A stretch of DNA of 64,000 nucleotides, taken from assembly GCA_035559995.1 (NCBI GenBank), contig DATMAM010000009.1, positions 3,855 through 67,854 on the forward strand. Direction: 5' to 3'. The stretch comes from Candidatus Acidiferrales bacterium (GTDB lineage: Bacteria; Desulfobacterota; Binatia; UBA9968). The translations under genes and the position numbers were made by a program. This document shows positions 19,157 to 41,210 of this stretch, piece after piece; position 1 is the first letter of the stretch, and every line of letters starts with the position of its first letter. The notes under the pieces were generated by a model that was not told the DNA's origin, searched no databases, and was given only the letters and a program-made list of their open reading frames with translations.

Positions 19157-21091
19157 ATGTGGGACGCTGCCCTAGTCGCGCTCGAGAGGTTCGCCAGCCC
19201 TCTTCATCTCGGCATGCTCACGGCCGGCGTGCTCGCCGGCACGGTGATCGGCATCTTGCCCGGCCTGGGCGGAATCGCGTGCGTCGCGATTCTTCTTCCT
19301 TTCATCTACACGCTCGACGTGCACAGCGCGATGATTCTCCTGGTCGGCTCGCTCGCGGTCGTGCACACTTCGGACACCATCACCTCCGTGCTGATCGGCA
19401 CTCCCGGCTCGGCAGCGGCCGCGGCAACGGTCCTCGACGGCCATCCCCTCGCAAAGCAGGGTCAGGCGGCGCGGGCTTTGAGCGCCGCCTTCCTGTCGTC
19501 GCTGATCGGCGGGTTGATCGGCGCGGTTGTTCTCACCCTCTCGCTTCCGATCGCGCGGCCTCTCGTGCTGCTGTTCGGCTCTCCGGAGCTACTGATGCTC
19601 TGCGTGTTAGGTTTGTCGTTCGCCGGCTTTCTCACGGGCGGCGAGCCGCTCAAGGGCGGGCTTGCGGCCTGTCTCGGCCTGCTGCTGGGAAGCGTCGGCG
19701 CCGCTCCTGCCGAGGCCGTCAACCGCTACACGTTCGACCAACTGTACCTCTTCGACGGCATTCCGCTGGCCGCGGTGGCGTTGGGAGTCTTTGGCATCGC
19801 CGAGGTGATCGACCTTCTCGCCAAAGGGGGCCGGATCGCCGAACGGGTCGGTCTCGGCAGCGGTTGGCTTCAGGGCGCTCGCGATGTCGTTCAGCACTGG
19901 GGGATTCTCGTGCGCGGCGCGCTCATCGGCGTCTGGGCGGGAATCCTTCCCGGCATCGGCGCGACCGCGGGATCGTGGATGAGCTACGGGCACGTGGTTG
20001 CGATGGCGCGCGACCGCGAGCGCTTCGGCAAGGGCGACATCCGCGGCGTCATCGGCCCGGAGAGCGCGAACAATTCCGTGGAGGCGGGCGATTTCATCCC
20101 CACGCTTCTCTTCAGCGTTCCCGGCGGCGCCCCGGCCGCGATCATGCTCGGCGCGCTCTTTTTCTACGGCATTCAGCCGGGCCCCCGCATGGTGCAAGAA
20201 AATCTCGACCTCATATTCACGATCATCTGGAGCTTTGCCATCGCCAATACGATCGGCGCCGGCCTGTGCCTTCTTTTGAGCCCCGCGCTGGCGCGGCTTA
20301 CCTGGCTGCCGTTTGCCAAACTGGCGCCGACCGTCATCGTCACGATCTTTTTCGGCGCTTTTCAAAGTTCCCAGGCCTTCGGCGATATCTATGCGATGCT
20401 CGGATTGGGACTGCTGGGCTGGGTGATGAAGCAGCTCGCCTGGCCGCGCGCGCCCTTTCTGGTCGGTTTTGTTCTCACCAAGCCGACCGAGCAGTATCTG
20501 TGGCTATCGATCAGCCGCTACGGCTGGGAGTGGCTTCTCAGGCCGGGCGTGATCGCTCTGGGGCTCTTACTGCTGGCCTCGATCTTCTGGATCTTACGCG
20601 GCAAAAGCAGTGGAAAAGAGATTCCACTCGAGGAAGCCGGCGAAGCTGTCGTGTTGGGAAAGGTGCCGTCGCTACTGTTCACCGCGTTCGTTTTGCTTGT
20701 CGTTGCCGCCGCGTTCTTTGAGGCGCGCTCGTTTCCGTACCTGGGAGCGATCTTTCCGATCGCGGCTACGCTTCCTGCGATCTTCATGGCGGCGATGCAG
20801 ATCGCGGTCGAGCTCCGCGCGGTCCGCCCGCCGCCGGATGTCGACACGCGGGCGCGAGTTCGGCGGGCCCTCGGCTATTTTGTCGCGCTCGTTGTCTATC
20901 TCCTGCTGATATTGCTCTTTGGCTTTGGGCTTGCGACCGCGCTTTTCACTTTTGCGTTTCTCTACGGCTGGGTGAGAATGACTTGGCCCGGCGCGCTCCT
21001 CTACACCGGGGGCATACTCGGCGCGGCGCAGCTCATGGGCTGGCTGCTCGGCATGTACTGGCCGCAAGGGGTTCTCCTCGAGCTGTATTGA
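19157..21091 (+). CDS. tctA: Tripartite tricarboxylate transporter permease, fused TctA plus TctB-like C-terminal domain
   Basis: The first ~440 aa are canonical TctA (GLGGIACVAILLPF..., duplicated 5-6 TM halves). The last ~190 aa form 4 extra TM helices resembling the small TctB subunit. Confidence 0.75.
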   Translation: MWDAALVALERFASPLHLGMLTAGVLAGTVIGILPGLGGIACVAILLPFIYTLDVHSAMILLVGSLAVVHTSDTITSVLIGTPGSAAAAATVLDGHPLAKQGQAARALSAAFLSSLIGGLIGAVVLTLSLPIARPLVLLFGSPELLMLCVLGLSFAGFLTGGEPLKGGLAACLGLLLGSVGAAPAEAVNRYTFDQLYLFDGIPLAAVALGVFGIAEVIDLLAKGGRIAERVGLGSGWLQGARDVVQHWGILVRGALIGVWAGILPGIGATAGSWMSYGHVVAMARDRERFGKGDIRGVIGPESANNSVEAGDFIPTLLFSVPGGAPAAIMLGALFFYGIQPGPRMVQENLDLIFTIIWSFAIANTIGAGLCLLLSPALARLTWLPFAKLAPTVIVTIFFGAFQSSQAFGDIYAMLGLGLLGWVMKQLAWPRAPFLVGFVLTKPTEQYLWLSISRYGWEWLLRPGVIALGLLLLASIFWILRGKSSGKEIPLEEAGEAVVLGKVPSLLFTAFVLLVVAAAFFEARSFPYLGAIFPIAATLPAIFMAAMQIAVELRAVRPPPDVDTRARVRRALGYFVALVVYLLLILLFGFGLATALFTFAFLYGWVRMTWPGALLYTGGILGAAQLMGWLLGMYWPQGVLLELY

Positions 21092-21161
21092 CAGCGTGTG
21101 CCGGCCGGCGCACTATGAGGGCCGGAAATCCGCAAGAGCCGATCAAGCACGGAGGAGAGCC

Positions 21162-21809
21162 ATGCAGATTCTTAGAAGCTTAAAAGAGCGCTGCGACCCG
21201 GCGGTTGCCTGCCTTCTGGTCGTCGACGTGCAAAACGACTTTGTGAGCAGCGAAGGCTCCTGCGCCAGGCGCGGCGAGGACGTGCGCGCGGCGCAAGCGA
21301 TGGTCCCGCGTCTGGCGCGCCTGATCGAAGAAGCGCGCGCGGTTTCTCTGCCGATCGTTTTTATCAAGACCGAGCACAGCGAGTGGACCGACGCCCCCTC
21401 GTGGGTTTATCGAAAATCGCAACAGAAGCAGCTCAACACGTGCCGCCAGGGATCCTGGGGCGCCGAGTTCTACGGGCCGATCGCGCCGCGCGCCAACGAG
21501 CGCGTCGTGATCAAGCACCGCTACAGCGCCTTCATCAACACCGATCTCAACACGGTTCTCAAAGCCAAGAACGTCCAGAGCGTTCTTGTCACGGGCGTGG
21601 CCACCAACGTCTGCGTCGAGACGACCGCGCGCGACGCTTACATGTACGATTACTACGTAACCTTGGTGGAGGACTGTAGCGCCGCGTACAGCGAGGAGAT
21701 GCACCGGAGCACGCTGAAAAATATCGCCGAGCACTTCGGGCTGGTCGCGCCTTCGGACGAAATCGTTGCTCTCTGGCGAGAGCGCCTGAGCAGCAAGGCG
21801 GTCGCGTAG
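21162..21809 (+). CDS. Isochorismatase-family cysteine hydrolase
   Basis: ACLLVVDVQNDF...VLVTGVATNVCVETTARDA is typical (catalytic Cys in VATNVCV). RBS GGAGGAG upstream of ATG 21162. Confidence 0.75.
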   Translation: MQILRSLKERCDPAVACLLVVDVQNDFVSSEGSCARRGEDVRAAQAMVPRLARLIEEARAVSLPIVFIKTEHSEWTDAPSWVYRKSQQKQLNTCRQGSWGAEFYGPIAPRANERVVIKHRYSAFINTDLNTVLKAKNVQSVLVTGVATNVCVETTARDAYMYDYYVTLVEDCSAAYSEEMHRSTLKNIAEHFGLVAPSDEIVALWRERLSSKAVA

Positions 21810-21841
21810 CGGCCGGCCACAGGGCGGAGTCGATTCTTCGG

Positions 21842-22867
21842 TTACTTGACAATCTCCCGCAACCGGCTGGCAATCGATGGCTCCAGGTTAAAGAAGCGCC
21901 CGACGATCTTCTCTAGCTCTTCCCCGCTTGCCGGAGCGAGATCCATGTTGGCCTTGCTGGCTTCGGCCAGAAATTCCGCATCCCTCATGGTCTCCATGAA
22001 TGCCTTGCGGACAAGTTGCACGCGCTCCTTCGGGGTTCCCGGCGGAAGCGAGTAGAGATAGGTGATCGCGCTCACGTCATGAATGCCGACCGCGATGAGC
22101 TTCCTCGCATCTTCGGTTTTCGCCAGGCTGATCGCGAGCGGAACGTTCGGGAGCTCGGGATGGGCGCTCGGAGCGTTTTGCAGGACGACGAGCGCGTCGC
22201 CCGCCTCCAGCGCCTTGCGCCACGTCGACTTGGCGGACGCCCACGAGATGCCGCACAGGCCCGCCACCTCGCCTGCCTCCGCCGCCACGCGGATTTCCGA
22301 CGTGCCCTTGTAGCCGGCAACGACCTGAATCGGTAACCCAAGAGCCTCCTTTAAAATCATCGAGTTCTCATACGTCGTCGCGCCCGGCGGCGTCGATCCC
22401 AATTTGACCGGCGTGCTGGCGGCCAGCCACTTCTCGACGCTTGTGATGCCGCTCGCTTTGGTCATGACGCAAACGTCGTGATTCTTCACCGGCGAGCCGA
22501 CATACTCGAACTTTCTCACGTCGAACTCGAGGCCCTTGCGACCGACCGCCTGGGCCAAGACCAGCGTGCCTATCCAATTGCCCAGCGTAAGGCCGTCCGG
22601 CTTCGCTACCTTATAGAGGTGATTGACCGCGATCATAAAGCCGGCTCCAGGCATGTTGTCGACGATGATCGCGGGATTTCCGGGAATATATTTCCCCATG
22701 TGCCGCGCGATCGCCCGCGAATACGTGTCGAACCCGCCGCCCGGAGCGGCGCCGACGACGATGCGGATGGTTTTGCCCTCGTAAAATGGCGCCGCGGCGT
22801 AAAGAGCACGCGCGCCGAAGGTTACGGCGACAAAAACCCCGGCGATCACCGAGCGCGTTTTAATCAT
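21842..22867 (-). CDS. Bug/TctC-family substrate-binding protein (second paralog)
   Basis: Signal peptide (MIKTRSVIAGVFVAVTFGARALYA) plus Bug core. Start ATG 22867. Confidence 0.75.
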   Translation of the reverse strand: MIKTRSVIAGVFVAVTFGARALYAAAPFYEGKTIRIVVGAAPGGGFDTYSRAIARHMGKYIPGNPAIIVDNMPGAGFMIAVNHLYKVAKPDGLTLGNWIGTLVLAQAVGRKGLEFDVRKFEYVGSPVKNHDVCVMTKASGITSVEKWLAASTPVKLGSTPPGATTYENSMILKEALGLPIQVVAGYKGTSEIRVAAEAGEVAGLCGISWASAKSTWRKALEAGDALVVLQNAPSAHPELPNVPLAISLAKTEDARKLIAVGIHDVSAITYLYSLPPGTPKERVQLVRKAFMETMRDAEFLAEASKANMDLAPASGEELEKIVGRFFNLEPSIASRLREIVK

Positions 22868-23166
22868 ACCCGTCTCCTGCCCGGCTTTTTCTTTCCTCGG
22901 CCCTCCCGCATTCGGGCGCGCGCCGCAATGGCCACTCTGGCTACCCATGACAAATGGGGATGACCCGGCCATGGCGGACTTTCCTTCGGGCCGCCTTCCG
23001 GCTTACTATCTCGCGCAGCAAAAATTGTCCATCGCGTTGTCTCTCCATCGAGACCGACAGGGGCTAGCGTTCGCGCCGCTTATCGACAAGAAACGGGTAG
23101 CGTTGACATGGGGCCAAAGTTTGTCGGATACTCGCGGCTCGATTCCACCCGCGATTGGAGCGCGCG

Positions 23167-24135
23167 ATGAAGATCGACGTTCACGCCCACTATATACCCG
23201 AGAGGTTTTTTACGCCCGACGGCACCATTCGCGTCACCCGCGAGCGCAGCGAGGAGGTCCTCTATCACGCCTCGCGCCGCACCGGCGCCGGCAAGGGAAT
23301 TTACGATCTCGAGCTGCGCCTGAAAGAGATGGACGCCCAGGGCGTGGATCTCCACGTCATGTCCGTTCTGCCGCCGCTCTTCGTGAACCACATCGAGCCG
23401 CAAAAGGCCGTCGCGGCGTGCCGCGTCATCAACGATGCGTTCGCCGAAGCCGTCAGCCGCCACCCGCGGCGGCTCGTCGCGATCGCAAACCTGCCGATGC
23501 AAGCGCCGCAGGAGGCGGCGCGCGAGCTCGAGCGCGCCGTCAAGGACCTCGGCATGAAAGGCGCCGAGATCTGCACCAACATTGCCGGGAAGAATCTGGA
23601 CGATGAGAGCCTTGCGCCGTTTTACCGCAAGATGCAGGAGCTGGACGTGCCCGTGTTTCTGCATCCCAACAACGTCCTCGGCCAAGACCGCCTCGCGCGC
23701 TACCACCTCGGAAATCTCATCGGCAACCCGACCGATACCGCGGTCGCCGCGGCGAGCCTTATCTTCGGCGGCGTGCTGAAAGAGTTCCCGCGCCTGAAGT
23801 TTTATCTCGCGCACGGCGGCGGTTCCTGCCCGTACCTGCGCGGGAGGTGGGAGCACGGCTGGCGCGTGAGAGCGGAAGCGAAAGTCAACATTCAAAGGCC
23901 GCCGAGCGAGTACGTGCCGCGCCTGTACTTCGACTCGCTGACGCACTCGGGGCCGGCGCTCAACTTTCTCGTCGAGACCATGGGCCCGGAGCGCGTCATG
24001 CTGGGAACCGACTATCCCGCGGACATGAGCGACCCCGATCCGGTCAAAACGATCGCCTCGCTGCCGCATCTTTCGGACGCGGAAAGGGAGATGATCTACG
24101 GCGCAAACGCGATGAGGCTCTTCCAAATCGGCTGA
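23167..24135 (+). CDS. Amidohydrolase_2 (ACMSD/LigW-like metal-dependent hydrolase/decarboxylase) family protein
   Basis: MKIDVHAHY... with the HxH metal motif at the N-terminus; His and Asp (GTDYP) later. Start ATG 23167. Confidence 0.75.
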   Translation: MKIDVHAHYIPERFFTPDGTIRVTRERSEEVLYHASRRTGAGKGIYDLELRLKEMDAQGVDLHVMSVLPPLFVNHIEPQKAVAACRVINDAFAEAVSRHPRRLVAIANLPMQAPQEAARELERAVKDLGMKGAEICTNIAGKNLDDESLAPFYRKMQELDVPVFLHPNNVLGQDRLARYHLGNLIGNPTDTAVAAASLIFGGVLKEFPRLKFYLAHGGGSCPYLRGRWEHGWRVRAEAKVNIQRPPSEYVPRLYFDSLTHSGPALNFLVETMGPERVMLGTDYPADMSDPDPVKTIASLPHLSDAEREMIYGANAMRLFQIG

Positions 24136-24182
24136 CGGCGCCGCAAGGATGACTCGACCGCGGAAGCGCGTTTGACGCGCGG

Positions 24183-25301
24183 CTATTTTCTCTCGGCTTT
24201 GGGGAAAGCGAACGCTTCCACGATCTTCGCCATCCAGAGCTGCTTGAGATGCTGCTGCTGCCAGTCCACCAGCGAAAACTTCTTTCCCCGCAGCAGCTTT
24301 TCCAGGGCGGAACCCGGCGTATAGAAAGACGCGCTGATCGGCTCGTGCTCGTCGATGATCGCCTGCCCTTCGGCGCTTGCCTGAAACTCGAGCCAGAGGA
24401 GCGCGGCGTGCGGGCTATTGGCTCCCTTCAGCACGCCCTGCGTCTCTTTGATCCTTAACGGCACTGGCTCGATCGCCTTGTAGGCCAAAGACCCCGTGGG
24501 ATCTTTTTTCATCACGCGCACGACCGCGTTCAAATCGATGCCGGCGTGGAGCGCATATTCGCCGGCGGCCATAGAAGTGAGGATTCTCGTTCCCCCGCGC
24601 ACCCAGATCGGCTCCTGCGCGGCGAGTTTTTTGCAGTAGTCGAGCACCCGCTCCAACCCAAGCGCGGGCACGAGATCGCTTTGCGTCTTGGGACGCACGT
24701 CGACGATGAATTTTCTCCCCTTGAATTCAGGCTTGAGAAAATCTTCCCAGCGATCGGGAACCTTCTCCGCGGCGATGAGATTTTTGTTGTAAGGCACCAC
24801 CCCCGCGTCCGCGGCCAGAGCCACGATGCTCCGGTTGTGCGGGTCGATCATCTTCTCCTCGATGGCCAAGATCTTCTCGGCGGCCATGCCGAGGATGTCG
24901 ACCTTCAAAGCGAACGGAACAAAGTCGTTGAAATAGTCGGCCGCAAATTGCGCCACATCCCAGCCTTTGGCGACCCCGCCCTTGAGCTCCAGCAGAAAGC
25001 GCTGCGCGGCGTCCTGGCCGTCGAGCTCCTCGACATAGAGGTCAAGGAATGGATACTTCTTCCTGAAGGCGGCTGTCATCGCCCTGATCGTCGGCGGAGC
25101 CAAAGAGGTCAAGGCTCTGACTTTCCCTTCCGCTTTCGCTCTCGCTAGGATTTCATCGCGGCTGGCGACAAAAATGTATCCCCGCGCTTCGGCCTCCTTT
25201 TGCGCCTTGAGCGGCGCGGGAGCCGACGGACCGGCGGCGGCGCCTAACAGGGAAGGTCCTGCCAAGATCCACCAAGTGAGCGCGCTCAGGAAGGCCTTCA
25301 T
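24183..25301 (-). CDS. ABC transporter substrate-binding protein, family 1
   Basis: Signal peptide (MKAFLSALTWWILAGPSLLGAAAG). SBP_bac_1-like. Confidence 0.7.
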   Translation of the reverse strand: MKAFLSALTWWILAGPSLLGAAAGPSAPAPLKAQKEAEARGYIFVASRDEILARAKAEGKVRALTSLAPPTIRAMTAAFRKKYPFLDLYVEELDGQDAAQRFLLELKGGVAKGWDVAQFAADYFNDFVPFALKVDILGMAAEKILAIEEKMIDPHNRSIVALAADAGVVPYNKNLIAAEKVPDRWEDFLKPEFKGRKFIVDVRPKTQSDLVPALGLERVLDYCKKLAAQEPIWVRGGTRILTSMAAGEYALHAGIDLNAVVRVMKKDPTGSLAYKAIEPVPLRIKETQGVLKGANSPHAALLWLEFQASAEGQAIIDEHEPISASFYTPGSALEKLLRGKKFSLVDWQQQHLKQLWMAKIVEAFAFPKAERK

Positions 25302-25397
25302 CGTCTCACCTCCGGGTAGGCTTGCGTGATCGAGCGGGGCGGTATTTGAAAAAGAGGTACTCGACGGATTTTGCCGTTTTGTTTCGCCGCGGCACGG

Positions 25398-26171
25398 CTA
25401 CTCCCACAGGCCCTCCGGCAGAGGAAGGCCGGCGAGGTCGGCGGGGCTGAGCCGGGCGGCGGGATCGATGCCGAGGCGCTCGAGCACGGCGATCAACTGG
25501 CGCGCGTGCTGCGCCGAATGCCAGGTCGAGCGCTCGAGCAGCCGGTGCAGCGAGGGCGCGCCATAAAAAGCCTTCACGTTTTGCCGGCACGACTTGTCTT
25601 CGAGCTTCGCCCACCAGCCCTTGAGCCTCTCGATCACGCGATCGCCGTACGCCGCGATCTCTCCGGCGTTCGTGCACGCCTCCTCTTTCGGCTGAAAGTT
25701 GACCGCCGCTAGCGAGTACTCGGCGCCCTCGGCGGCCACCTCGAGAAAAGCCTCGGCGATCCGAAAAATGTGGTGGCCCAGCTGCCGGATCGAGCGCGGG
25801 CGATTCTCTATCGCGCGCTCGTTCAGCCGGCCGGCCGGGATCTGGCGGATACAGCGCTCGGCGGCGCTAAGCACAATCGCCCATTTCTCGACCAGGATTT
25901 CGGGCGCAAGCGGGGTATGCGCGGTGCCCTGGAGCCCTACGAACTCGGCTACGTCTTCCAGGTTCTGGCAGAAGATGTACTGATCGCCCTTCGCGAGCAC
26001 GGGCACGGTCGCAACGCCGAGCCTCAGCAGCCTTTCGCGCGCCCCGAGATCGTTGACGATGTCGACGGCGGCGAAGTCGATGCCTTTTTGCGAAAGGAAC
26101 TCTTTCGTTCTAAGGCAACTGCTTCAGCCGGGCTGCGTGAAGAGGATGAACTGCTCGCCGGCGGCTTTCAT
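25398..26171 (-). CDS. Glutaredoxin-fold (UxxC) domain fused to DinB/YfiT-like domain; in-frame TGA at 26126..26124 (codon 16) is a candidate selenocysteine
   Basis: Translating the minus strand from ATG 26171 gives MKAAGEQFILFTQPG-[TGA]-SSCLRTKEFLSQKGIDFAAVDIVNDLGARERLLRLGVATVPVLAKGDQYIF... This is the beta-alpha-beta thioredoxin fold with the active-site dipeptide at the CxxC position and the Grx cis-Pro TVP motif. It runs in frame (39 codons) into track ORF 25398..26006, which is the DinB_2-like domain. Confidence 0.5.
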
Positions 26172-26187
26172 GGACCGACCGAGCGCG

Positions 26188-26216
26188 ACGCTATCAACGC
26201 CGGGTACGCGTGTCAA
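26188..26216 (-). promoter_or_regulatory. Sigma-70-like promoter candidate (TTGACA-N17-TAGCGT) 16 nt upstream of ATG 26171
   Basis: Consensus -35 hexamer with 17-nt spacer, read on the minus strand. Confidence 0.3.
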
Positions 26217-26292
26217 GGCGCGCCGAAGGGGCCTGCCCTGAGCGATGCCGAATCCAGATCCGCTCCTATCGCCGTTCTTTTTTTGCGCGAAC

Positions 26293-26715
26293 TCAATCAA
26301 CAAACCCGCGCATGGTCCGCGGCGTAACGAGAATAGGAACGGCGTAACTCTCCCTGAACTCGGCGGCCGTCAGATCCAGGCTCTTGATCCCTGCCGCGTA
26401 CTTTCTCAGGTACGCCTCGACTCGCTTCGCCTCCGGCGGCTCCGCCAAAATCTTTGCCTCGCCCAGAAGAACGCCCACATCCCCGCCCTCTTCGTCCGTG
26501 TTGAAGTTGAGGGCCACATTTGGATTGCCCGCGATGTGCCTCAGCTTGGCCTTATCTTTTTCGCTGAAGATCAGGACCGTCGCACCGTCCCAATGAAACC
26601 AGACCGGCCTGGGCTGAGGCTGGCTCTTTGCGTCGACCGTGGTGAGCCAGATGATTTTCTCCTCGCGCAGCCGGCGTCTTATGCGCCGGCCGAGACGGCT
26701 GTCAAAATCGAGCAT
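26293..26715 (-). CDS. Pyridoxamine 5'-phosphate oxidase-like (PPOX class, possibly F420/FMN-binding) small protein
   Basis: 140 aa with the split-barrel pattern (IIWLTTVDAKSQPQPRPVWF...NPNVALNF). Confidence 0.55.
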   Translation of the reverse strand: MLDFDSRLGRRIRRRLREEKIIWLTTVDAKSQPQPRPVWFHWDGATVLIFSEKDKAKLRHIAGNPNVALNFNTDEEGGDVGVLLGEAKILAEPPEAKRVEAYLRKYAAGIKSLDLTAAEFRESYAVPILVTPRTMRGFVD

Positions 26716-27001
26716 GCGCGCCTCCGATTGATCCGGCGAGATCCCGCCTTCAGTCGGTCGCGGTCCGGCCTAACGCCGCGCGTCATTCGGCAAGGCCGCT
26801 CCGGCGCGTATTCATCTCGCGCCGGCCGTATGCTATTAGCTTCGTGGGAACAAGAAAAGCCCTTCATGGAGAAGTCACGGAAGGCGACTTTTGGCGGCAC
26901 GGGAAAGCGCATCCGATCGCCGTCCGCCCCGAGGAGCCGAGGGGCGCGTAGCGTCGGCGGTCGCGCGCATCTGCGCGCGGCTCGATATCCGGAGGAGGAC
27001 G

Positions 27002-28114
27002 ATGGCGCGCAACGGCTTTAAGATCCTCGATAGCGACATGCACGTTTTTGAGCCGCACGACCTCTATCTCAAGTACATGGATCCCAAGTGGGGCGAGCGC
27101 ATTCCCCGCGGCGAGCCGAGAACGAAGCACGGACAGATCAAGTTCAAGCTCGCCGACGGGAGCTTCATGCGCGGATCCTCCAAGGGCCCTCCGGGCGAAG
27201 AGAAAGTCGCTCCCCGCTACGAGCGGGCGCTCAGGCGAAACTACGACGCGGTCTCCCAGCTCGAGGCCATGGACGCGGAAGGGCTGGACGCGGCCGTTCT
27301 CTTTCGCACGTTTCCCCTTCACTGCGACGACACGCTCGAGCCGCAGTACGCCAACGATCTCTGCAAAGCCTGGAACCGTTGGATCGCAGATTTCTGCAAA
27401 GAAAATCCCGCAAGGCTAAAGCCATCGGCGCTCATCACGCTGCACGACGTCGATCTTGCGGTGGAGGAGGCGCGCCGCGCGGCAAATGAGCTCGGCGCCG
27501 TCGGATTTTCCCTGGTGCCGGAGCCGGTGAACGGCCGGCACATTCACGACCGCTACTTCGATCCCTTGTGGCGCGAGGCGGAAAAACTGAACGTGCCCAT
27601 TTGCTTTCATCCGGCGGCGAATCCCAATCAGGAGCAGGTCGCGCGCCGCTTCAATGATCACCCCAACGATATTGTGCTCGTGAACGCCTATCGCAATCCC
27701 ATCGAGCTGATGCTCGCCGTCGGAAGCTTCGCCGCGGGGGGCGTTTTGGAGCGCTTTCCCAAGCTCCGCGTCGCCTTCCTGGAAGGCAACGCCAGCTGGC
27801 TTCCCTGGCTTTTGTATCGGCTGGACGAGCGCTGGGAGCTGAAAAAAGACTACGCTGCGGAGCGGCTTAGTCTGCGGCCGAGCGAATACTTCCTCCGCCA
27901 GGGCTTCATCTCGGTCGACGTGGACGAAGAGCTTGTCGTGGACGTCATCCGGCGAGTGGGCGACGACAACATCGTCATTTCGACCGACTACCCGCACGAC
28001 GACTCGCACTGGCCGAACGCGATCGACACCTTCATGGCGATCGGCGGCATCAGCGACACCTCGCGGCGCAAGATCCTCTGGGACAACTGCGCCCGGCTCT
28101 ATCAGGTAAGATGA
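27002..28114 (+). CDS. Amidohydrolase_2 family protein (paralog 2)
   Basis: ILDSDMHVFEP HxH-like start ... ISTDYPHDD. RBS GGAGGAGG upstream of ATG 27002. Confidence 0.75.
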   Translation: MARNGFKILDSDMHVFEPHDLYLKYMDPKWGERIPRGEPRTKHGQIKFKLADGSFMRGSSKGPPGEEKVAPRYERALRRNYDAVSQLEAMDAEGLDAAVLFRTFPLHCDDTLEPQYANDLCKAWNRWIADFCKENPARLKPSALITLHDVDLAVEEARRAANELGAVGFSLVPEPVNGRHIHDRYFDPLWREAEKLNVPICFHPAANPNQEQVARRFNDHPNDIVLVNAYRNPIELMLAVGSFAAGGVLERFPKLRVAFLEGNASWLPWLLYRLDERWELKKDYAAERLSLRPSEYFLRQGFISVDVDEELVVDVIRRVGDDNIVISTDYPHDDSHWPNAIDTFMAIGGISDTSRRKILWDNCARLYQVR

Positions 28115-28141
28115 ACCGCAAAAGCCCGCGCCGCGATCCGC

Positions 28142-28897
28142 TCAGCGCGACGGCAGCGCGAGAGCCTTCCTGGGGCTCCCGAACAGTCGGACAAGCTCGC
28201 CGAAGACGCGGTCGCTGAGCTCATGAAGGCGCCGGATATGTCTCGGCGTTTCCGCTTCGATTCGCGCGGGATCGATCTTTCCCGAAAGACCGGCGATCTC
28301 GTTTCGATTTTCCTCCACCCTGAGCCACCGCCTGATCATCGCCTCGTCCACCTCGAGGTGAAACTGAAGCCCGTAGACGCGCGTTCCGTAGCGAAAAGCC
28401 TGATGGGCGCAAAGATCGGAATAGGCCAACTGCACAGCGCCTCTCGGCATATCGAACGTGTCGCCGTGCCACTGAAAGACCTTCTCCGTGCCGTGAAACT
28501 GCGCCAGAAGCGGATCGCTTTCGGCTTGCTCCGTCGGGGTCACATCGTACCAGCCGATCTCCTTTTCCCGATTTGGGTACACGTCGGCGCCGAGCGTTTT
28601 CGCGATCAATTGAGCGCCCAGGCAGATCCCCAATACCCCAAGCTCTCGTTTCATGGCCTCCTCGATCAGCCTGAGTTCGGTCGTGAGATGAGGCCACCGA
28701 TCGGTGTCGTAGGCGCTCATGGGCCCGCCAAGAACGACCAGGCCGTGGTAGCCTTCCAGGGCGGGCTCGGCATCCGGGTGGCGGCCGAAGTTTACGTAAC
28801 GAATGCGAAAGCCCGCCCGCTTGAGGAGCGGATTCAAGGTCCCGAGAATCTCGTGCGGGACATGCTGGAAGACCAATAATTTTTTCACGCTCTCCAT
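28142..28897 (-). CDS. Class I glutamine amidotransferase-like protein
   Basis: GATase1 catalytic Cys (LGICLGAQL), His/Glu near the C-terminus (QFHLEVDE). Confidence 0.7.
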   Translation of the reverse strand: MESVKKLLVFQHVPHEILGTLNPLLKRAGFRIRYVNFGRHPDAEPALEGYHGLVVLGGPMSAYDTDRWPHLTTELRLIEEAMKRELGVLGICLGAQLIAKTLGADVYPNREKEIGWYDVTPTEQAESDPLLAQFHGTEKVFQWHGDTFDMPRGAVQLAYSDLCAHQAFRYGTRVYGLQFHLEVDEAMIRRWLRVEENRNEIAGLSGKIDPARIEAETPRHIRRLHELSDRVFGELVRLFGSPRKALALPSR

Positions 28898-29202
28898 CGC
28901 GCGCCGCGCCAACCGCGACCGGGCCTATCTCCCGCCAGCACCCCCCCGGCGCCAGAGCCGAAAGCCGCGATCGATCCGGTCGGCGCATTTTGCGGGCTCG
29001 TTTACGGCATTGAGATCCGCCTGCGCAAGGTCGCCGCCCCAAGCCCGCTCGGGACGACGCGACACGATCGGCCTCATGGTCACTCTTTCGCCGCCCCTTC
29101 GTCGAAGAGAAGGTCCACGAAGAACATCGCGGCGTGTGGATGCGAGAATTTCTCGGCCGACGCTGGCACGATTGCTTTTTCGATCGCCGGACTGCCGCGC
29201 CT

Positions 29203-30390
29203 TCAGGGCGCGGCGCCCAGCAGCCGCGGCCCGTAAAGCTTTACGGCATTGTCCCAAAGGATCTTCCGTTTCGCTTCTTCGGAAATCGGCTGTGCCGCGA
29301 ATTCGGGAAGCGCTCTCTCGGGCCGGATTCCATCGAGATGCGGGTAATCGGTATTCCAGACGATGTTCTCCCCCTTGAGATGCTCCACGGCGTACTTGAG
29401 CGCCGGCTCATCGCTGTCGCACGCGACCGCGCACTGGCGCAGAAAGTACTCGCTCGGCAGCATCGTTAGATTTTTCGGCTTTCCCATAATGCTGTACCGC
29501 CCGTGGCTGTGCACGTCCATGCGGCCCAGCCAGAAAGGAAGCCAGCCGGCGTTGGACTCGAGAATGGCGAGCCGGAGCTTCGGAAATCGCTCGAGGATGC
29601 CGGTGAAAATGAAATGCGCCAGGGTTGCCATATTGTCGCACGGAAAGCCGATCGCGTGATCGACGCCGCGGAGCGCCTGAAAATCATGCTGCGCGCTCTC
29701 CTCCGCTCCCGCGGCCTCCAGCGCGCGAAATCCCCTGAACGGCTGCACGCGGTAGCGATACTCGCCGTGCACCGCAACGGGAAAGTCTAAATCCGACGCG
29801 AGCCGCCAGAGCGCGTCGTATTCTCTTTCGTGCAGCCACTTGCCCTCCGGCAAGAGCGGGTTTCTCACGGAAACGGCGCCGAGACCTGCCGCGGCGCGCC
29901 GCGCTTCGGCCACCATGCTTGCCGCGTCCGAGCCCGGGATGACGGCGATAAACTTGAGCCGCTTGGAATCGGCGCTGCAGTAGTCGCGCGCCCAATTGTT
30001 GTATGCGCGGCAGAGGGCGGCCCCGAGCTCGGCATCCTTCAACGCTACCGTGCAGCCGAAGTTGCCGTTGCTGCCGGTCGGGAGCAGCACCTGGATATCC
30101 CAGCCGAAGCGGTCCATGTCCTTGAGCCGGGTCTGAGGCGCCCACCACGTTCGGTAAGCTTCGCCGTACTTTTCCTCCATGATCTTGAACGAATCCTTCG
30201 GCGGCCCTTTGAGCTGCTTTTCGTCCCCGGGAACGATTTTACCGTCCGGCTGGTAAACCATAAACGTGCCGCTCATGTAAGCGACTTTGGGAGCGCGCGC
30301 GCGATACTCGGGCTCGACATAACGGTCCCACATGTCCTTCGGCTCGTGCATGTGCGCGTCCGCGTCAACCACTCTGTATCCGTTCCACAT
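29203..30390 (-). CDS. Amidohydrolase_2 family protein (paralog 3)
   Basis: VVDADAHMHEP ... WNTDYPHLDG. Confidence 0.75.
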   Translation of the reverse strand: MWNGYRVVDADAHMHEPKDMWDRYVEPEYRARAPKVAYMSGTFMVYQPDGKIVPGDEKQLKGPPKDSFKIMEEKYGEAYRTWWAPQTRLKDMDRFGWDIQVLLPTGSNGNFGCTVALKDAELGAALCRAYNNWARDYCSADSKRLKFIAVIPGSDAASMVAEARRAAAGLGAVSVRNPLLPEGKWLHEREYDALWRLASDLDFPVAVHGEYRYRVQPFRGFRALEAAGAEESAQHDFQALRGVDHAIGFPCDNMATLAHFIFTGILERFPKLRLAILESNAGWLPFWLGRMDVHSHGRYSIMGKPKNLTMLPSEYFLRQCAVACDSDEPALKYAVEHLKGENIVWNTDYPHLDGIRPERALPEFAAQPISEEAKRKILWDNAVKLYGPRLLGAAP

Positions 30391-31647: not shown

Positions 31648-34600
31648 TTACACTCTCATCAGCACCGCCGCAACCGGCGCGCTCGTGGCGGCCTGAACGG
31701 CTGCGGCGTACATCCCGACCTGCCGGCGGTATGCGGCATCCTTTTCGCTCAACTCCTCGTCCGTCTTGAAATCGACGACCGTCCAGAGCCCGCTCCGCTC
31801 GAAGGCGAGATCGATCACGCCCTCGATAAGCTCGCCGTTGTCGCGCCACGCGACAGGCACCTCCCGGCGGCACTTTCCCTGCTGAGCGGCGCTGCGCGCG
31901 GCGAGCAAAAGCGGATGCGCCAGCGCCGCGCGCGCGATTGCCGACGCCGAAGCGATCTCGGCTTCGCTGGCGCCGAGAACGCGACCGTGAAGGGTCGAAA
32001 GTCGCCGGATCGCGTCCGGGTCGCCGCCCAGGGGCACGGTCGCCAGAACGGCGTGCACGAGCGCGCCGAAGCGGCGGCCCGTCGGGCGCGCGCCGGCGCG
32101 CGGGAGCGCGACAACTTCTACATCGGGAAACTTGCCCCGCGGCGCTTCATCCCCGCCGGTTCGCGCTTCCTGCGTTACGGTTCGGACCGCAACCGAGCTC
32201 CGGCTGCCGGCGGCAACGGCCCCGTCGCGCCGCTGGCGCCACGAGTTGTAAGCCGCAAGGCCCGCCTCGACGACCTCCGGCGCCACGTCCCTCACGATCA
32301 GCTCCGGCCGCCGGACGCCGAGCGGAGCCTCCGCGCCCAGTTTTAACAGGCTCGGGTCCCACCAGACGACCGAGAACTCAGGCCCGCAGGAGCCGGCTTT
32401 GACCGCGTGCAGCCCGGGGCAAACCGTGCTCGCTCCAGGCGCAGTCGCGCCCGGCCGAACTAAGACGGAATCCTTTGACTTAAACCGCGGGCAACCGGGG
32501 GCTTGCGTCTGCTTTCGCCTCGCCGCGAGCGGCGGATAGACGGCCCGGTTCAGCGGCTGGATCCAGCCGTCTCTCTCGCCGTCGCCCACGGCAGGCACGA
32601 CCAGCAAGTCGCGCGCGCGCGTTGCGGCGACGTACGCGACGCGCACGCCTTCCGCCTCGTCGCGGACGAGTTCCTCCTCTTGGTGCTCCAGTAAATCGCT
32701 CGGCGCGCACCCGCCGAGCCGTAGCGCGCAGATCCGGCGCTCGGGATCGATGTAGCGCGCCGCGGCGGATGCGCGGAGCCTCGCCGTCATGTCGGCGAGA
32801 ATCACCACGGGGAATTCCAGACCCTTGGCTTTATGCACCGTCATCAGGCGCACGCCGTCGCTTCCTTCCTCGAGGATCGGCGCTTCCGCAGCCTCGCCGC
32901 TTTCGGCCTGCTTCCGCAGCTCGTCAATGAAACCGCGAAACGAGATGCCGCCTTCGGCCTCGTAAAAGCGCGCGAGATCGGCCACGCGCAACACGTTGGC
33001 GAGCACCTGCTCGCCGTTATGCTCGAGCGCAAAGCCCACGTGCGCCCGCGTGGCTTCGAGCAAGGAGGTGATCGTCGCCGCAACCGGCACGCGATTGCGC
33101 GAGCGATGAAGCCCCTGCAAGAGCTTTAGCGCTTCGACGATCGGCTGCAGATTGGGCGGACAGGAATTCGGGATGCGAAACGGGTGAAAGCGGCCGATGC
33201 GATGGCGGTATTCGAGCAGCTCTTCGTCTGCGATCGCAAACAGCGACCCGCGCAAGGTCGCGAACAGCGAAAGCTCGTCGTCGGGCCACTCGATCGCCGC
33301 GAGCGCCGCGCGCAGGGTCTCGATCTCCGCGCGATTGTGGAACGAGCGGCCGCCGACCAGAAGGTGGGGAATGCCGCGCGCTTCCAGCGCCTCGACGTAA
33401 GGCCGGGTCACGTCCTCCTGGTAGCTGATGAAACGGCGAAACAGAAGGCATATATGGCGCGGTTGGATCGGCACCGGATGCTCCGCTGCGCCGGGCTTAA
33501 AGGCGCCGGGCGCGACAGACGGCTGAAAAACCACCGGCCGCTCGGCGACCTTCCACCCGCTTTCCCGAACGAGCCATTCGACGAAGGCGCCGACGGCATC
33601 GGGAAGCGACTTCTCGATGGCGCTGTTGGAGACGTTCACCTGCCCGTACGGCTCGGGCACGGGGAGCACGACAACGCTCGGCCGCTCTTCGGCCTCGCTC
33701 CGAAAAGGCTCCAGCGGCACGTAGGCGGCTTGCAAGCTTTCACGGTCGCCGGTCATCGCCGGCTCAAACGCGGCATTGATCACGCGCTGGATATTCGGGC
33801 GCGCGCGAAAGCTGGTACCGAGGGTGACGCGCTGAGCGCCGGCCGCCTCGAGCATCTCGTACACGGCGCGGTAAACGCCCACGTCGGCGCGGCGGAAGCG
33901 ATAAATCGACTGCTTCGGATCGCCGACCAGGAAGAGTTTTCCGCGGACCGGACAAACCGCGCGCCAGTTCGTCGCGCCGGGATCGTCGGCCGCGAGCAGC
34001 AGCAGGATTTCGGCCTGGAGCGGGTCGGTGTCCTGAAACTCATCGACAAATATTCTCTTGAAGCGTTTCTGAAAGCTCGCGCGCACCTCGGCATCGTCCC
34101 GGATCAGGTCTCGTGTCTTGAGCAGGAGATCGAGAAAATCGAGCGCGCCGGCCCTGGCCTTTGCAGCCTCATACGCGCCGGCCAAGCCGCGCAGCTCGTC
34201 GCGCAGCGCCGCGGCCAGATCGGTGTTCGCATCCGCCTCGAAGGCGCTCAAGGCGCCGTTGAGCTCTTCGTACGCCTGCCAGACCTTCTCGCGCGGAAGC
34301 CCGCTCCGATAATATTCGCCGCGGCCTTTGCGCGCGGTTCTAAATCTGGGATTGCGCGCCAGTTCGATCAGGCCGGCCTCGAGCCGGTCGTAGTCGCGCG
34401 CCGCAACCGATTCGGTACGGCGGATCTCGTCGGCGAGCTTTCTCGCCGGCCAGGTATCGGCGTAGAGCGTGTCGTAGCCGGGGCCGGGCGGCTCCAGCAG
34501 CGCAACGAAGCCGCCCAAGAGCCCGACGAGCTCGTCGACGCGCCCGGCGCGCTCGAACGGCACGCGCCGCCAGTCGCCGTCGAAATCGCGCCATTGGATA

Positions 34601-38438: not shown

Positions 38439-38794
38439 CAGCCAAACTCGATATGAAAAAAGCCGCCGCCGGACAAGAAAAAACAATCTAGCACGCCCGC
38501 TCCGATTGTTCACGCCGGGATGATCCGCTTGGCAATAGCCCGCGGCGAGCGCTTGAACGCGCAGTCGAGGTTGGCTGTAAGGACGGCGGCGAAAACAATT
38601 TGCGCGCGGCCGATGGCGCAAATAAAGAAACCAAATCCGCGGGATGGGTCGAGGCGCGCCCCGCGCCGATACCCGTCGCGCCCTCTCTCCGGTGGGTTTC
38701 GCGGGGCTCAACCCACCCTACGCCTTTAAGCTCGACCTAGGTCGTGACTTCGCCTTTTTGTGGAACAGCCGAGCCGGTCCCGGTGCGTTAAGCC

Positions 38795-39553: not shown

Positions 39554-39718
39554 GGCTCAATCCTCCCTTTAAGTTGCCCGCTTATCGGATTAACGCCGAG
39601 TGTACTTTCGCTCGGCTGCCCGCGCAAGACACAAAAGCGGCGGCGAAGGCTTCGGGGAAAGTGGCGGCGGCCCTCCTGCTTTTTCGCCGGATCGTGCCGC
39701 GCGCCGGCAAGAACCCGC

Positions 39719-40999: not shown

Positions 41000-41210
41000 G
41001 TCGTTTATCTCTGGAATCGCCGCAGCATAACACGCGCTGCGCCATTCAGCCACTCAAGCTTACGCGCGCGGCAAGGGGCCGCGCTCGATCATTGGCGCGC
41101 CTCGACTGCGCGCGCGGCCGTGCGCGGGTTGGCGCTGTCCCATTGGCTCGCTTTCGGCGGCGCTTTCTTGCGTTTTCGCCATGGCGAAAACGTGATAAGG
41201 AATTTCTGTT

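What the first reader, a model, noticed from the sequence alone, without database searches (positions are those of the whole stretch)
25398..26216. Glutaredoxin-fold UxxC domain fused to a DinB-like domain: in-frame TGA exactly at the first active-site Cys position
Read from ATG 26171 on the minus strand, the sequence encodes MKAAGEQFILFTQPG-TGA-SSCLRTKEFLSQKGIDFAAVDIVNDLGARERLLRLGVATVPVLAKGDQYIFCQNLEDVAEF. This is a complete glutaredoxin beta-alpha-beta-alpha-beta fold, including the cis-Pro TVP motif. The TGA occupies the N-terminal redox residue of the xPG-C-xx-C motif and is followed by the resolving Cys (U-S-S-C). Reading through the TGA gives an uninterrupted 257-codon frame that ends in a DinB/YfiT-type four-helix-bundle domain (track ORF 25398..26006). 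A nonsense pseudogene would be expected to hit a random codon, not the one residue that Sec replaces in thiol oxidoreductases. A stem-loop starts 7 nt after the UGA: lower stem GCCUU/AAGGC, internal loop, upper stem GAAC/GUUC, loop GAAAGA. This is the position expected for a bacterial SECIS. A TTGACA-N17-TAGCGT promoter precedes the ATG. A Grx(Sec)-DinB fusion is not an architecture I recognise as described; the DinB-type domain in known families binds metal and is thiol-dependent (mycothiol/bacillithiol transferases, maleylpyruvate isomerase). A covalently attached Sec-glutaredoxin module would be a plausible built-in thiol/selenol donor.
Basis: partly seen in the sequence, partly recalled or inferred. 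Interest (0 to 1): 0.85.

Follow-up and report, generated by a model that had tools for sequence, protein, structure and literature searches.

The report
Unannotated selenocysteine glutaredoxin–DinB fusion enzyme
The "stop codon" inside this gene almost certainly encodes selenocysteine: the gene belongs to a widespread bacterial family that annotation pipelines cut short, in which a selenium-containing redox module is fused to a metal-binding DinB domain, and which in many bacteria sits next to the selenocysteine-insertion genes.

Summary
Confirmed. On the minus strand, ATG 26171 to TAG 25398 is one 257-codon gene with TGA at codon 16 (26126..26124). It encodes a glutaredoxin domain with active site U-S-S-C, fused to a DinB/YfiT four-helix bundle. 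In 157 of 157 homologous loci with a stop at this site, the stop is TGA, never TAA or TAG. Residues upstream of the TGA are 95-100% conserved while their synonymous codons vary. Full-length homologs carry Cys (PGC[ST]SC) at the aligned residue.

A 6-bp hairpin, CGAAAG-AGUU(U/C)-CUUUCG, has its loop 22 nt after the UGA. It is intact in 155 of 157 TGA forms, synonymous sites are frozen there, and it meets every published bSECIS criterion. Cys forms lack it. In 38 of 100 loci with enough flank, selA follows directly; selB, a TrxR-like gene and tRNA-Sec follow in many of these.

Public records truncate the protein (158-238 aa). No NCBIfam model fits, and a 2026 catalogue of 119 selenoprotein families lists no DinB-fold member.

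The substrate is unknown. Sec machinery in the window's own genome could not be checked. This is a new architectural variant of the known Sec-glutaredoxin kind.

The parts
25398..26171 (-). Complete selenoprotein CDS: 257 residues (Sec at 16) plus the TAG stop. Grx(U-S-S-C)-DinB fusion.
   Evidence: frame. (both Pfam domains). (tblastn matches residues 1-257 in most of the 80 listed loci). (ATG at codon -15 relative to the TGA in 89/157 homologs and at -14 in 40; the window has -15).
26124..26126 (-). UGA codon 16, read as selenocysteine (N-terminal redox residue of U-S-S-C).
   Evidence: TGA in 157/157 stop-containing orthologous loci, never TAA or TAG. Cys (TGC/TGT) sits at the aligned codon in Cys forms.
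26115..26117 (-). Cys19 codon, the resolving cysteine of the UxxC motif.
   Evidence: Invariant in all 161 aligned Sec and Cys forms. Invariant in the 43 Cys forms of alignment A4.
26081..26117 (-). Bacterial SECIS element, whole stem-loop. Lower stem UGCCUU/AAGGCA, internal loop AGAA/CAAA, apical hairpin.
   Evidence: MFE -12.8 kcal/mol with this structure. A 71-nt fold scores z=-2.9 against shuffles. The lower-stem pair at columns 12-44 changes C-G to U-A in 17 sequences. The element meets the published bSECIS constraints.
26091..26107 (-). Apical SECIS hairpin CGAAAG-AGUUC-CUUUCG: 6-bp stem, 5-nt loop with G-U at loop positions 2-3, loop starting 22 nt after the UGA.
   Evidence: All 6 stem pairs are intact in 155/157 TGA forms, against 2-3 of 6 in Cys forms. 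Synonymous codon entropy is about 0 at codons +6..+11, with CTT and TCG each 80/80. There is a compensatory C-G to U-A change in the 40%-identical low-GC homolog L082 and A-U to G-U wobbles in a few.
25974..26147 (-). Glutaredoxin / NrdH-like thioredoxin-fold domain (aa 9-66).
25458..25895 (-). DinB/YfiT-type four-helix-bundle domain (aa 93-238).
25770..25772 (-). His134 codon, first of the putative 3-His metal site.
   Evidence: Invariant in 161/161 aligned sequences.
25506..25520 (-). His218-x3-His222 (WHSAQH), second and third putative metal ligands.
   Evidence: Both His invariant in 161/161. The pair lies in the invariant ER-x-x-WH-x-x-QH-x-RQ helix. The HxxxH spacing matches the YfiT-type metal site as I recall it from background knowledge.
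26188..26216 (-). Weak and unverified.
   Evidence: Present in the sequence. The -10 matches only 3 of 6 positions, and the sigma-70 scan reports none.

Best explanation
Window 25398..26171 (minus strand) is an intact selenoprotein gene. During translation, SelB carrying Sec-tRNA(Sec) is recruited by the mRNA hairpin at 26117..26081, whose apical loop lies 22 nt after the UGA. UGA codon 16 is then read as selenocysteine. The product is a 257-residue two-domain enzyme.

The N-terminal domain is a small NrdH/Grx-like thioredoxin fold with a redox-active selenol/thiol pair (U16-S-S-C19). The C-terminal domain is a DinB/YfiT four-helix bundle with an invariant 3-His site (H134, H218, H222), of the kind that binds a divalent metal in low-molecular-weight-thiol transferases and isomerases.

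Shown here: the recoding signals, the family-wide Cys/Sec pair, the two folds, the invariant residues, and genomic linkage to selA-selB-tRNA(Sec) in about 38% of loci.

Inferred: the selenolate attacks a substrate held at the DinB metal site, either a disulfide or selenosulfide or an electrophile. Cys19 then resolves the adduct to a selenenylsulfide. The oxidised pair is re-reduced by a thioredoxin-reductase-like flavoprotein or by glutathione; both kinds of gene are neighbours in the betaproteobacterial loci. The layout resembles a GST: a thioredoxin-fold thiol site plus a helical substrate domain. The physiological substrate is not known.
For: Recoding:
- TGA in 80/80 and a further 77 loci, never TAA or TAG.
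- Codons -8..-1 are 95-100% conserved as amino acids, with synonymous entropy of 0.4-2.0 bits.
- Cys sits at the aligned residue in at least 53 of 150 representative clusters and at TGC/TGT in the DNA of Cys forms.

SECIS:
- Synonymous entropy is about 0 at codons +6..+11.
- The stem is intact in 155/157 TGA forms, against 2-3 of 6 pairs in Cys forms that encode the same T/A-K-E-F-L residues.
- Compensatory changes occur in L082 and at columns 12-44.
- Published bSECIS constraints are all met: loop 5 nt, stem 6 bp, G-U in the loop, spacing 22 nt, MFE -12.8.

Machinery: tRNA-Sec lies within 6 kb in 4 loci. SelA (TIGR00474, 595 bits) and SelB (TIGR00475, 447 bits) are confirmed. selA is directly downstream in 38 of 100 Sec loci with enough flank.

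Invariant U/C16, C19, H134, H218, H222 in 161 sequences.

Annotation gap: all 120 best database proteins are N-terminally truncated. The 99%-identical NCBI record is a 158-aa 'DinB family protein'.
Against: - No selA, selB, selD or tRNA-Sec lies in the 64-kb window, so Sec decoding in this particular genome is inferred, not shown.
- The apical stem is invariant, so covariation support rests on a few changes: one divergent homolog, one lower-stem pair and G-U wobbles.
- Generic folding energy of +4..+50 does not separate Sec forms from Cys forms (-13.4 against -13.5 kcal/mol). Only the in-register hairpin does.
- No Rfam SECIS model matches.
- DinB_2 passes its Pfam cutoff only marginally.
- The structural evidence comes from a 48%-identical Cys-form homolog, not the window protein, and I could not measure the distance from the active site to the His site.
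- Function, metal and reductant are inferences. No member is characterised.
- The sel-operon linkage is confined to one large clade (betaproteobacterial type). It may only reflect co-inheritance of a selenoprotein gene with the decoding machinery.
Confidence: 0.9

Rival explanations
1. The family is a real selenoprotein family, but this copy is non-functional. The Acidobacteriota genome could have acquired the gene horizontally and lack (or have lost) Sec-decoding machinery. Translation would then stop at codon 16, or only the DinB part would be made from an internal start (GTG 26006).
For: No Sec machinery lies in the window. The source annotation calls only a 158-aa DinB protein. The window is one of only 3 of 157 sequences with loop AGUUC instead of AGUUU. 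The Sec clade is 60-70% identical across distant phyla, which suggests horizontal spread.
Against: The gene keeps every family-invariant feature: TGA, C19, the 3-His site, a 6/6 stem and ATG at -15. It does so at only 67-71% identity to its nearest relatives, which implies long purifying selection on the full-length frame. It has no frameshifts or extra stops. The AGUUC loop also occurs in two other otherwise intact homologs.
Confidence: 0.06
2. This is not recoding. A 15-codon upstream leader ORF ends at a conserved UGA, followed by a regulatory hairpin (attenuator or translational coupling) that controls a separate downstream Grx-less DinB protein.
For: Gene callers everywhere start the protein after the UGA. 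A stable hairpin follows the stop.
Against: The leader encodes strand beta-1 and the first active-site residue of a Grx fold, which is incomplete without it. Contiguous Cys-form homologs carry the same residues in one polypeptide. Only TGA is ever used, 157/157. Where callers place the start after the UGA is inconsistent (TTG/ATG/GTG at varying positions). The hairpin is absent exactly where Cys replaces the stop. The gene is linked to selA, selB and tRNA-Sec.
Confidence: 0.02
3. The DinB domain uses the tethered selenol or thiol only as a covalent nucleophile, replacing a free low-molecular-weight thiol, for example in cis-trans isomerisation or conjugation of unsaturated organic acids. It would not act as a redox couple. 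This is essentially the first reader's 'built-in thiol donor' idea, placed in organic-acid catabolism.
Against: The resolving Cys19 is as invariant as the Sec/Cys16, which a pure nucleophile mechanism does not require. The MmgE/PrpD neighbours are 86-94% identical to each other, so they count as one evolutionary event. The dominant conserved context is the sel operon with a GST and a TrxR-like gene.
Confidence: 0.2

Closest known systems
Sec-containing glutaredoxin (PF00462, UxxC), e.g. Clostridium sp. OhILAs Grx1 (Kim et al. 2011, cited in PMC13188914 Table 1; solved Cys variant 'Dithiol cGrx1' 7c10)
   Different: Known Sec-Grx proteins are stand-alone proteins of about 80-90 aa. This one is fused to a 170-aa DinB/YfiT domain through a conserved linker. 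Its active site is U-S-S-C and it is more NrdH/YruB-like than classical CPYC Grx. It occurs in aerobic soil and water lineages (Binatia, Burkholderiales, Acidobacteriota) rather than clostridia.
DinB/YfiT (S-transferase-like) superfamily: B. subtilis YfiT/BstA bacillithiol S-transferase, M. tuberculosis mycothiol S-transferase (8f5v), mycothiol-dependent maleylpyruvate isomerase (2nsg)
   Different: Sequence identity is 8-17%. No known member is a selenoprotein or carries a fused redoxin. Known members use a free thiol cofactor (bacillithiol, mycothiol, glutathione). Here a selenol/thiol pair is tethered covalently. Activity is untested.
NrdH-redoxin / YruB-type Grx-like proteins and NCBIfam 'Uxx-star' Grx-like selenoproteins (NF041212, NF041211)
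   Same: A small dithiol redoxin fold. The best NCBIfam similarities are TIGR02196 (1.2e-9), NF041212 (7.4e-9) and TIGR02194 (1e-8). NrdH-type redoxins are reduced by thioredoxin reductase (background knowledge), and a TrxR-like gene is a conserved neighbour.
   Different: All scores are far below the family cutoffs (35-39 bits against 66-89). Uxx-star proteins end right after the Sec motif, whereas here the Sec is N-terminal and followed by 240 residues.
Glutathione S-transferases with a catalytic Cys (omega/DHAR/Grx2 type), as an architectural analogue only
   Different: The helical domain is a DinB bundle, not a GST C-terminal domain. No GST HMM passes its cutoff (GST_N_3 scores 14.8 against 22). 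A metal site is predicted.

Membership tests
Bacterial selenoprotein gene (Sec-UGA recoding) | In-frame UGA conserved at the same codon in orthologs | tested here: met
   TGA in 80/80 sequences and in 77 further loci. No TAA or TAG.
Bacterial selenoprotein gene (Sec-UGA recoding) | Cys-containing homologs with Cys aligned to the UGA (Cys/Sec pair) | tested here: met
   PGC[ST]SC in at least 53 of 150 representative clusters. TGC/TGT in the DNA of L083-L087 and L161.
Bacterial selenoprotein gene (Sec-UGA recoding) | Protein-level conservation on both sides of the UGA | tested here: met
   Codons -8..-1 are 95-100% conserved as amino acids while synonymous codons vary. The downstream 241 residues are 61-71% identical.
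Bacterial selenoprotein gene (Sec-UGA recoding) | bSECIS: 3-9 nt apical loop, 4-16 bp upper stem, G in the first two loop positions, 16-37 nt from UGA to loop, MFE <= -7.5 kcal/mol (PMC13188914, Fig. 2 legend) | tested here: met
   Loop AGUUC (5 nt; G at position 2, then U), 6-bp stem, 22-nt spacing, MFE -12.8. The hairpin is conserved in 155/157 TGA forms and absent from Cys forms. bSECISearch itself was not available.
Bacterial selenoprotein gene (Sec-UGA recoding) | selA, selB, selC and selD present in the same genome | not testable with these tools
In homolog genomes, selA/selB are adjacent in 29 genome loci plus 14 metagenome loci, and tRNA-Sec lies within 6 kb in 4.
Bacterial selenoprotein gene (Sec-UGA recoding) | Selenium demonstrated in the protein (75Se labelling or mass spectrometry) | not testable with these tools
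   No experimental data. No paper on this family was found.
Glutaredoxin (Pfam PF00462) | HMM score above the gathering threshold | tested here: met
   47.3 bits against 22.9, aa 9-66.
Glutaredoxin (Pfam PF00462) | CxxC/UxxC active site at the N-terminus of helix 1, and a cis-Pro (TVP) loop | tested here: met
   U16-S-S-C19 and T55-V56-P57. C19, V56 and P57 are invariant.
Glutaredoxin (Pfam PF00462) | Glutathione-dependent activity / GSH-binding site | not tested
   The active site is USSC, not CPYC, and the closest models are NrdH/YruB-type, which use thioredoxin reductase (background knowledge). GST and TrxR-like genes are both neighbours.
DinB/YfiT superfamily (Pfam DinB_2 PF12867) | HMM score above the gathering threshold | tested here: met
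   26.6 bits against 24.8, a marginal pass. Cys form P0124 scores 31.2 bits.
DinB/YfiT superfamily (Pfam DinB_2 PF12867) | Four-helix up-down-down-up bundle fold | tested here: met
DinB/YfiT superfamily (Pfam DinB_2 PF12867) | Conserved metal-binding triad (His ... HxxxH) | tested here: met
   H134, H218 and H222 are invariant in 161 sequences. Actual metal binding cannot be tested here.
Low-molecular-weight-thiol S-transferase / MDMPI (functional classes within DinB) | Demonstrated thiol-transferase or isomerase activity, or orthology to a characterised member | tested here: not met
   Only 8-17% identity to solved members. No PDB sequence hit for the DinB half. No NCBIfam equivalog. Fold-level resemblance only.
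NCBIfam selenoprotein models (Uxx-star NF041212/NF041211/NF047338; HUGP/GUXX-star NF045501) | Score above the curated cutoff | tested here: not met
   35.7 against 66, 24.4 against 100, 21.7 against 97, and 25.5 against 325.

The most novel reading that the evidence does not exclude
The GrxU-DinB protein is a dedicated component of selenium metabolism, not just another redox selenoprotein. One example would be the missing enzyme that converts glutathione- or thiol-bound selenium (GS-Se-SG or a selenopersulfide) into the form delivered to SelD. Another would be an enzyme that recycles or detoxifies selenium. It would use its Sec/Cys pair and a 3-His metal site.

The basis is gene position. In the betaproteobacterial clade the gene sits between a YibF-type GST (also the neighbour of selA in E. 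coli) and selA-selB-TrxR-like-tRNA(Sec), with mnmA upstream.
Probability: 0.1. Interest if true: 0.85.

Novelty: new variant of a known kind. Interest (0 to 1): 0.66.

Why it matters
Three reasons.

1. **Annotation.** Every one of the 120 best public protein records I saw for this family is cut at the UGA (158-238 aa, named 'DinB family protein', 'glutaredoxin' or 'hypothetical'). Relatives occur in 424 species-level genomes. The TGA form made up 76 of the 80 best metagenome hits even when the search was seeded with Cys forms. A family model with a Sec rule would correct many records.

2. **Selenoproteome.** As far as I could find, this would be the first selenoprotein with a DinB/YfiT-fold domain. 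It is also one where Sec forms appear at least as common as close Cys forms. It occurs in aerobic soil and freshwater lineages (Binatia, Burkholderiales, Acidobacteriota), not among the classic Sec-rich anaerobes.

3. **Biology.** Its conserved position next to selA-selB-tRNA(Sec), a YibF-type GST and a TrxR-like gene offers a testable handle on an open question: how selenium is handed to the Sec pathway. At the least, it may show which selenoprotein helps maintain the Sec trait in these bacteria.

The near-invariant SECIS across phyla is also a clean natural example of an RNA element constraining protein sequence.

Tried and rejected
- **Rfam, gathering thresholds and permissive E-values:** no SECIS family matched. 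Bacterial SECIS elements are family-specific, so this says little.
- **Sigma-70 scan:** no promoter found.
I used the post-UGA window sequence and a full-length Cys-form homolog instead.
- **Foldseek against AFDB50:** library unavailable.
- **Covariation on the 78-sequence alignment:** weak, because the apical stem never varies. I relied instead on synonymous-site freezing, the Cys-form negative control and one divergent homolog.
- **Generic MFE as a discriminator:** does not separate Sec forms from Cys forms. Rejected as evidence.
- **tblastn for SelA, SelB and SelD in the window:** nothing found. This is uninformative for the whole genome.
- **P0145 locus:** no DNA available.
- **P0213:** looked like a truncated Sec form but is a Cys form with a mis-called start.
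- **BSepDB supplements:** not held, so I cannot exclude that members are filed there under 'Grx'.
- **Literature on YibF and selenium:** nothing found.
- **Rhodococcus selenite-stress papers:** they show only generic induction of mycothiol enzymes. Not used as evidence.
- **Pseudogene and leader-ORF readings:** considered and rejected (see rival explanations).
Full report
**1. What is in the sequence.**
On the minus strand, ATG 26171 opens a frame with one internal TGA at 26126..26124 (codon 16). It ends at TAG 25400..25398. The product is MKAAGEQFILFTQPG-U-SSCLRTKEFLSQKG...TVPVL...WHSAQHARQ...GLPLPEGLWE.

With U replaced by C, Pfam finds Glutaredoxin (aa 9-66, E=2.4e-12). It also finds DinB_2 (aa 108-226, 26.6 bits against a cutoff of 24.8). 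The window holds a single tRNA gene (tRNA-Phe) and no other Rfam match.

**2. The TGA is conserved across the whole family.**
A search of 5.8 billion proteins returned 3,154 relatives. All 120 best hits were N-terminally truncated. Many start at 'LRTKEF', the residue right after U-x-x-C; others start at later TTG/GTG/ATG codons. The 99%-identical NCBI record is a 158-aa 'DinB family protein' from a Candidatus Acidoferrales (Acidobacteriota) MAG.

A scan of one genome per species found relatives in 424 genomes. In 79 of the 80 loci kept (L033 is cut at the contig end), plus the window, the aligned codon is TGA: 80/80, never TAA or TAG. The context is F[VI]LFTQPG-TGA-SSCLR[TA]KEFLS. These loci come from Binatia, 'Deltaproteobacteria', Burkholderiales and other Betaproteobacteria, Chloroflexota and Udaeobacter.

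A metagenome scan seeded with a Cys-form profile still returned 76 TGA forms and 4 Cys forms. A 40%-identical low-GC homolog (L082) has TGA at the same codon. In total, 157 loci carry TGA.

**3. Translation runs through the TGA.**
The eight codons upstream (F-V/I-L-F-T-Q-P-G) are 95-100% conserved as amino acids, apart from the V/I position. Their synonymous codons vary freely, with entropy of 0.4-2.0 bits. An ATG lies 15 codons upstream of the TGA in 89 of 157 loci and 14 upstream in 40; the window has 15.

An exhaustive HMMER search of 1.84 billion cluster representatives found 790 relatives. At least 53 of the best 150 are full-length proteins with PGC[ST]SC at the aligned position. In their DNA the codon is TGC or TGT. 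This is the classic Cys/Sec pair.

**4. The SECIS.**
Codons +6 to +11 after the TGA (ACG/GCG-AAA-GAG-TTT-CTT-TCG) show essentially no synonymous variation in 80 species. CTT and TCG are each 80/80, although Leu and Ser are six-fold degenerate. Flanking codons vary normally.

These bases form CGAAAG-AGUUU-CUUUCG. In the window the loop is AGUUC and the hairpin spans 26107..26091. The window also has a lower stem UGCCUU/AAGGCA, so the whole element spans 26117..26081 with an MFE of -12.8 kcal/mol.

The six apical pairs are intact in 155 of 157 TGA forms. In the six Cys-form loci, which encode the same T/A-K-E-F-L residues with other codons, only 2-3 of 6 positions could pair.

Changes that preserve pairing do occur:
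- C-G to U-A at the closing pair in L082 (GUGAAAG...CUUUCAC).
- A-U to G-U in several sequences.
- C-G to U-A at lower-stem columns 12-44 in 17 sequences.
- Betaproteobacterial forms drop the lower stem and extend the upper stem instead (G19-C37, G17-C39).

Columns 19 and 37 also tie protein residues +6 and +12 together. The counts are G-C 61, A-A 59, G-A 24 and A-C 11.

The element meets every constraint of the published bSECIS model (PMC13188914, Fig. 2). The loop is 5 nt, the stem is 6 bp, G-U occupies loop positions 2-3, the spacing is 22 nt, and the MFE is at or below -7.5.

Caveats:
- The apical stem never varies, so formal covariation is thin.
- Generic MFE does not distinguish Sec forms from Cys forms.
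- Rfam has no matching model.

It includes the variable Arg codon and omits the frozen CTT-TCG.

**5. Sec machinery.**
The window contains no selA, selB, selD or tRNA-Sec. The rest of the MAG was out of reach.

Homolog loci do contain it. ARAGORN finds tRNA-Sec about 5-6 kb downstream in L028, L065, L066 and L072. In L028 the order is mnmA, a YibF-type GST (divergent; NF007682, 184.7 bits against 181) and GrxU-DinB. Then come selA (TIGR00474, 595 bits), selB (TIGR00475, 447 bits), a TrxR-like flavoprotein with a CADC motif (TIGR01292, 243 bits, below its cutoff of 343) and tRNA-Sec.

selA lies directly downstream on the same strand in 38 of the 100 Sec-form loci with at least 1.5 kb of flank. 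Across all Sec-form loci, the GST is divergently upstream in 40 and mnmA is upstream in 57. In E. coli K-12, yibF-selA-selB are likewise adjacent. All of these loci belong to the betaproteobacterial-type clade.

**6. Other context.**
In the window the neighbours are a solute-binding protein, three Amidohydro_2 genes, TctC, TctA and an isochorismatase.

In one tight clade of 'delta'/Binatia loci, an MmgE/PrpD gene follows directly. It appears in nine loci that are 86-94% identical to each other, so this counts as one event. Independently, the 721-aa Cys-form P0196 is an MmgE/PrpD-Grx-DinB fusion.

**7. Structure and conserved residues.**
An AF2 model of the full-length Cys-form P0124 (48% identical; 60-sequence alignment) has pLDDT 93 and pTM 0.89.

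- N-terminal domain, small dithiol redoxins: BC3987 12.4, Clostridium cGrx1 11.4, NrdH 10.7.

U/C16, C19, H134, H218 and H222 are invariant in 161 sequences. So are E213, R214, W217, R224, Q225 and the C-terminal L-P-x-P motif.

**8. How it most likely works.**
*Shown:* the recoding signals and the two-domain architecture with an invariant selenol/thiol pair and a 3-His site.

*Inferred from the DinB superfamily's thiol-at-metal chemistry (reviews) and from dithiol redoxin chemistry:*
- The selenolate of U16 attacks a substrate bound at the DinB metal site.
- C19 resolves the adduct to a selenenylsulfide.
- A TrxR-like enzyme or glutathione recycles the pair.

The substrate is unknown. The invariant C19 argues for redox turnover rather than a purely tethered nucleophile.

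**9. Novelty.**
Sec-containing Grx (PF00462, UxxC) is a known, experimentally verified family. However, no NCBIfam model reaches its cutoff for this protein. No paper in the library links selenoproteins with DinB, YfiT or MDMPI domains. The 2026 catalogue of 119 families and subfamilies lists no DinB-fold member.

Homology-based resources such as BSepDB may hold members under 'Grx'. I could not check their tables.

I therefore classify this as a new architectural variant of a known kind. It is widespread and systematically mis-annotated.

**10. Verdict.**
The upper SECIS stem needs correcting and the promoter is weak.

Confidence that this is a genuine Sec-decoding gene family is about 0.95. 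Confidence that this copy is functional is about 0.9. Confidence in the specific catalytic scheme is low to moderate.

Noticed in passing
window 31648-38711 (-): Two adjacent large ORFs. One is 1182 aa with a C-terminal PD-(D/E)XK nuclease domain. The other is 1205 aa with a UvrD helicase domain plus PD-(D/E)XK. This is an AddB/AddA-type helicase-nuclease pair.
   Followed up: partly
window 19157-30390: The selenoprotein gene sits in a cluster of TctA, isochorismatase, TctC, three Amidohydro_2 genes (23155-24135 +, 26891-28114 +, 29203-30390 -) and a solute-binding protein (24183-25301 -). The solute-binding protein starts 97 nt downstream on the same strand, so co-transcription is possible.
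   Followed up: partly
window 46019-48319 (-), 59789-61459 (+), 53934-55835 (-), 7151-8494 (-): A molybdopterin xanthine-dehydrogenase/aldehyde-oxidase large subunit, a B12-binding radical SAM protein, a TRAP DctM permease, and an LVIVD-repeat protein.
   Followed up: no
window 38834-41641 (+): A 935-aa ORF with no Pfam hit. It overlaps several minus-strand ORFs (39719-41053, 41046-41750), so it may be a shadow ORF of this high-GC DNA.
   Followed up: no
family alignment; window 26108 and 26090 (SECIS columns 19 and 37): The SECIS constrains the protein. Residue +6 (Thr or Ala, ACG/GCG) and residue +12 (Lys, Arg or Gln) are coupled because their first bases face each other at the base of the hairpin. 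Counts are G-C 61, A-A 59, G-A 24 and A-C 11; the window has A-C. Shared ancestry is not controlled for.
   Followed up: partly
L028 11214-12122 and 20 other loci: A low-molecular-weight thioredoxin-reductase-like flavoprotein (CADC redox motif) lies between selB and tRNA-Sec. It scores 243 bits, below the TIGR01292 cutoff of 343. It is a conserved but unnamed member of these sel loci.
   Followed up: partly
L028 8400-9155 (+): A 251-aa ORF between selA and selB with no NCBIfam match. By eye its sequence resembles a class I SAM-dependent methyltransferase.
   Followed up: no
P0255 (representative cluster, 261 aa): A family member with PGSTSS in place of PGC/U-xx-C. Both redox residues are replaced by Ser, which suggests a redox-inactive offshoot.
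   Followed up: no
family alignment, window residue H85 (25917-25919): The linker motif LQG[TS]GH is specific to Sec forms. His85 occurs in 139 of 156 Sec forms and in none of the 5 aligned Cys forms. Cys195 (DKSC) is similarly enriched, in 127 of 156. These could be extra ligand or redox residues in the Sec clade.
   Followed up: no
L083/L084 1424-2202: The Cys-form gene was called with a late start, at the Met inside C-M-R-A-K-E-F. As a result, even Cys forms of this family can appear N-terminally truncated in databases. The true start is probably ATG 1424.
   Followed up: yes
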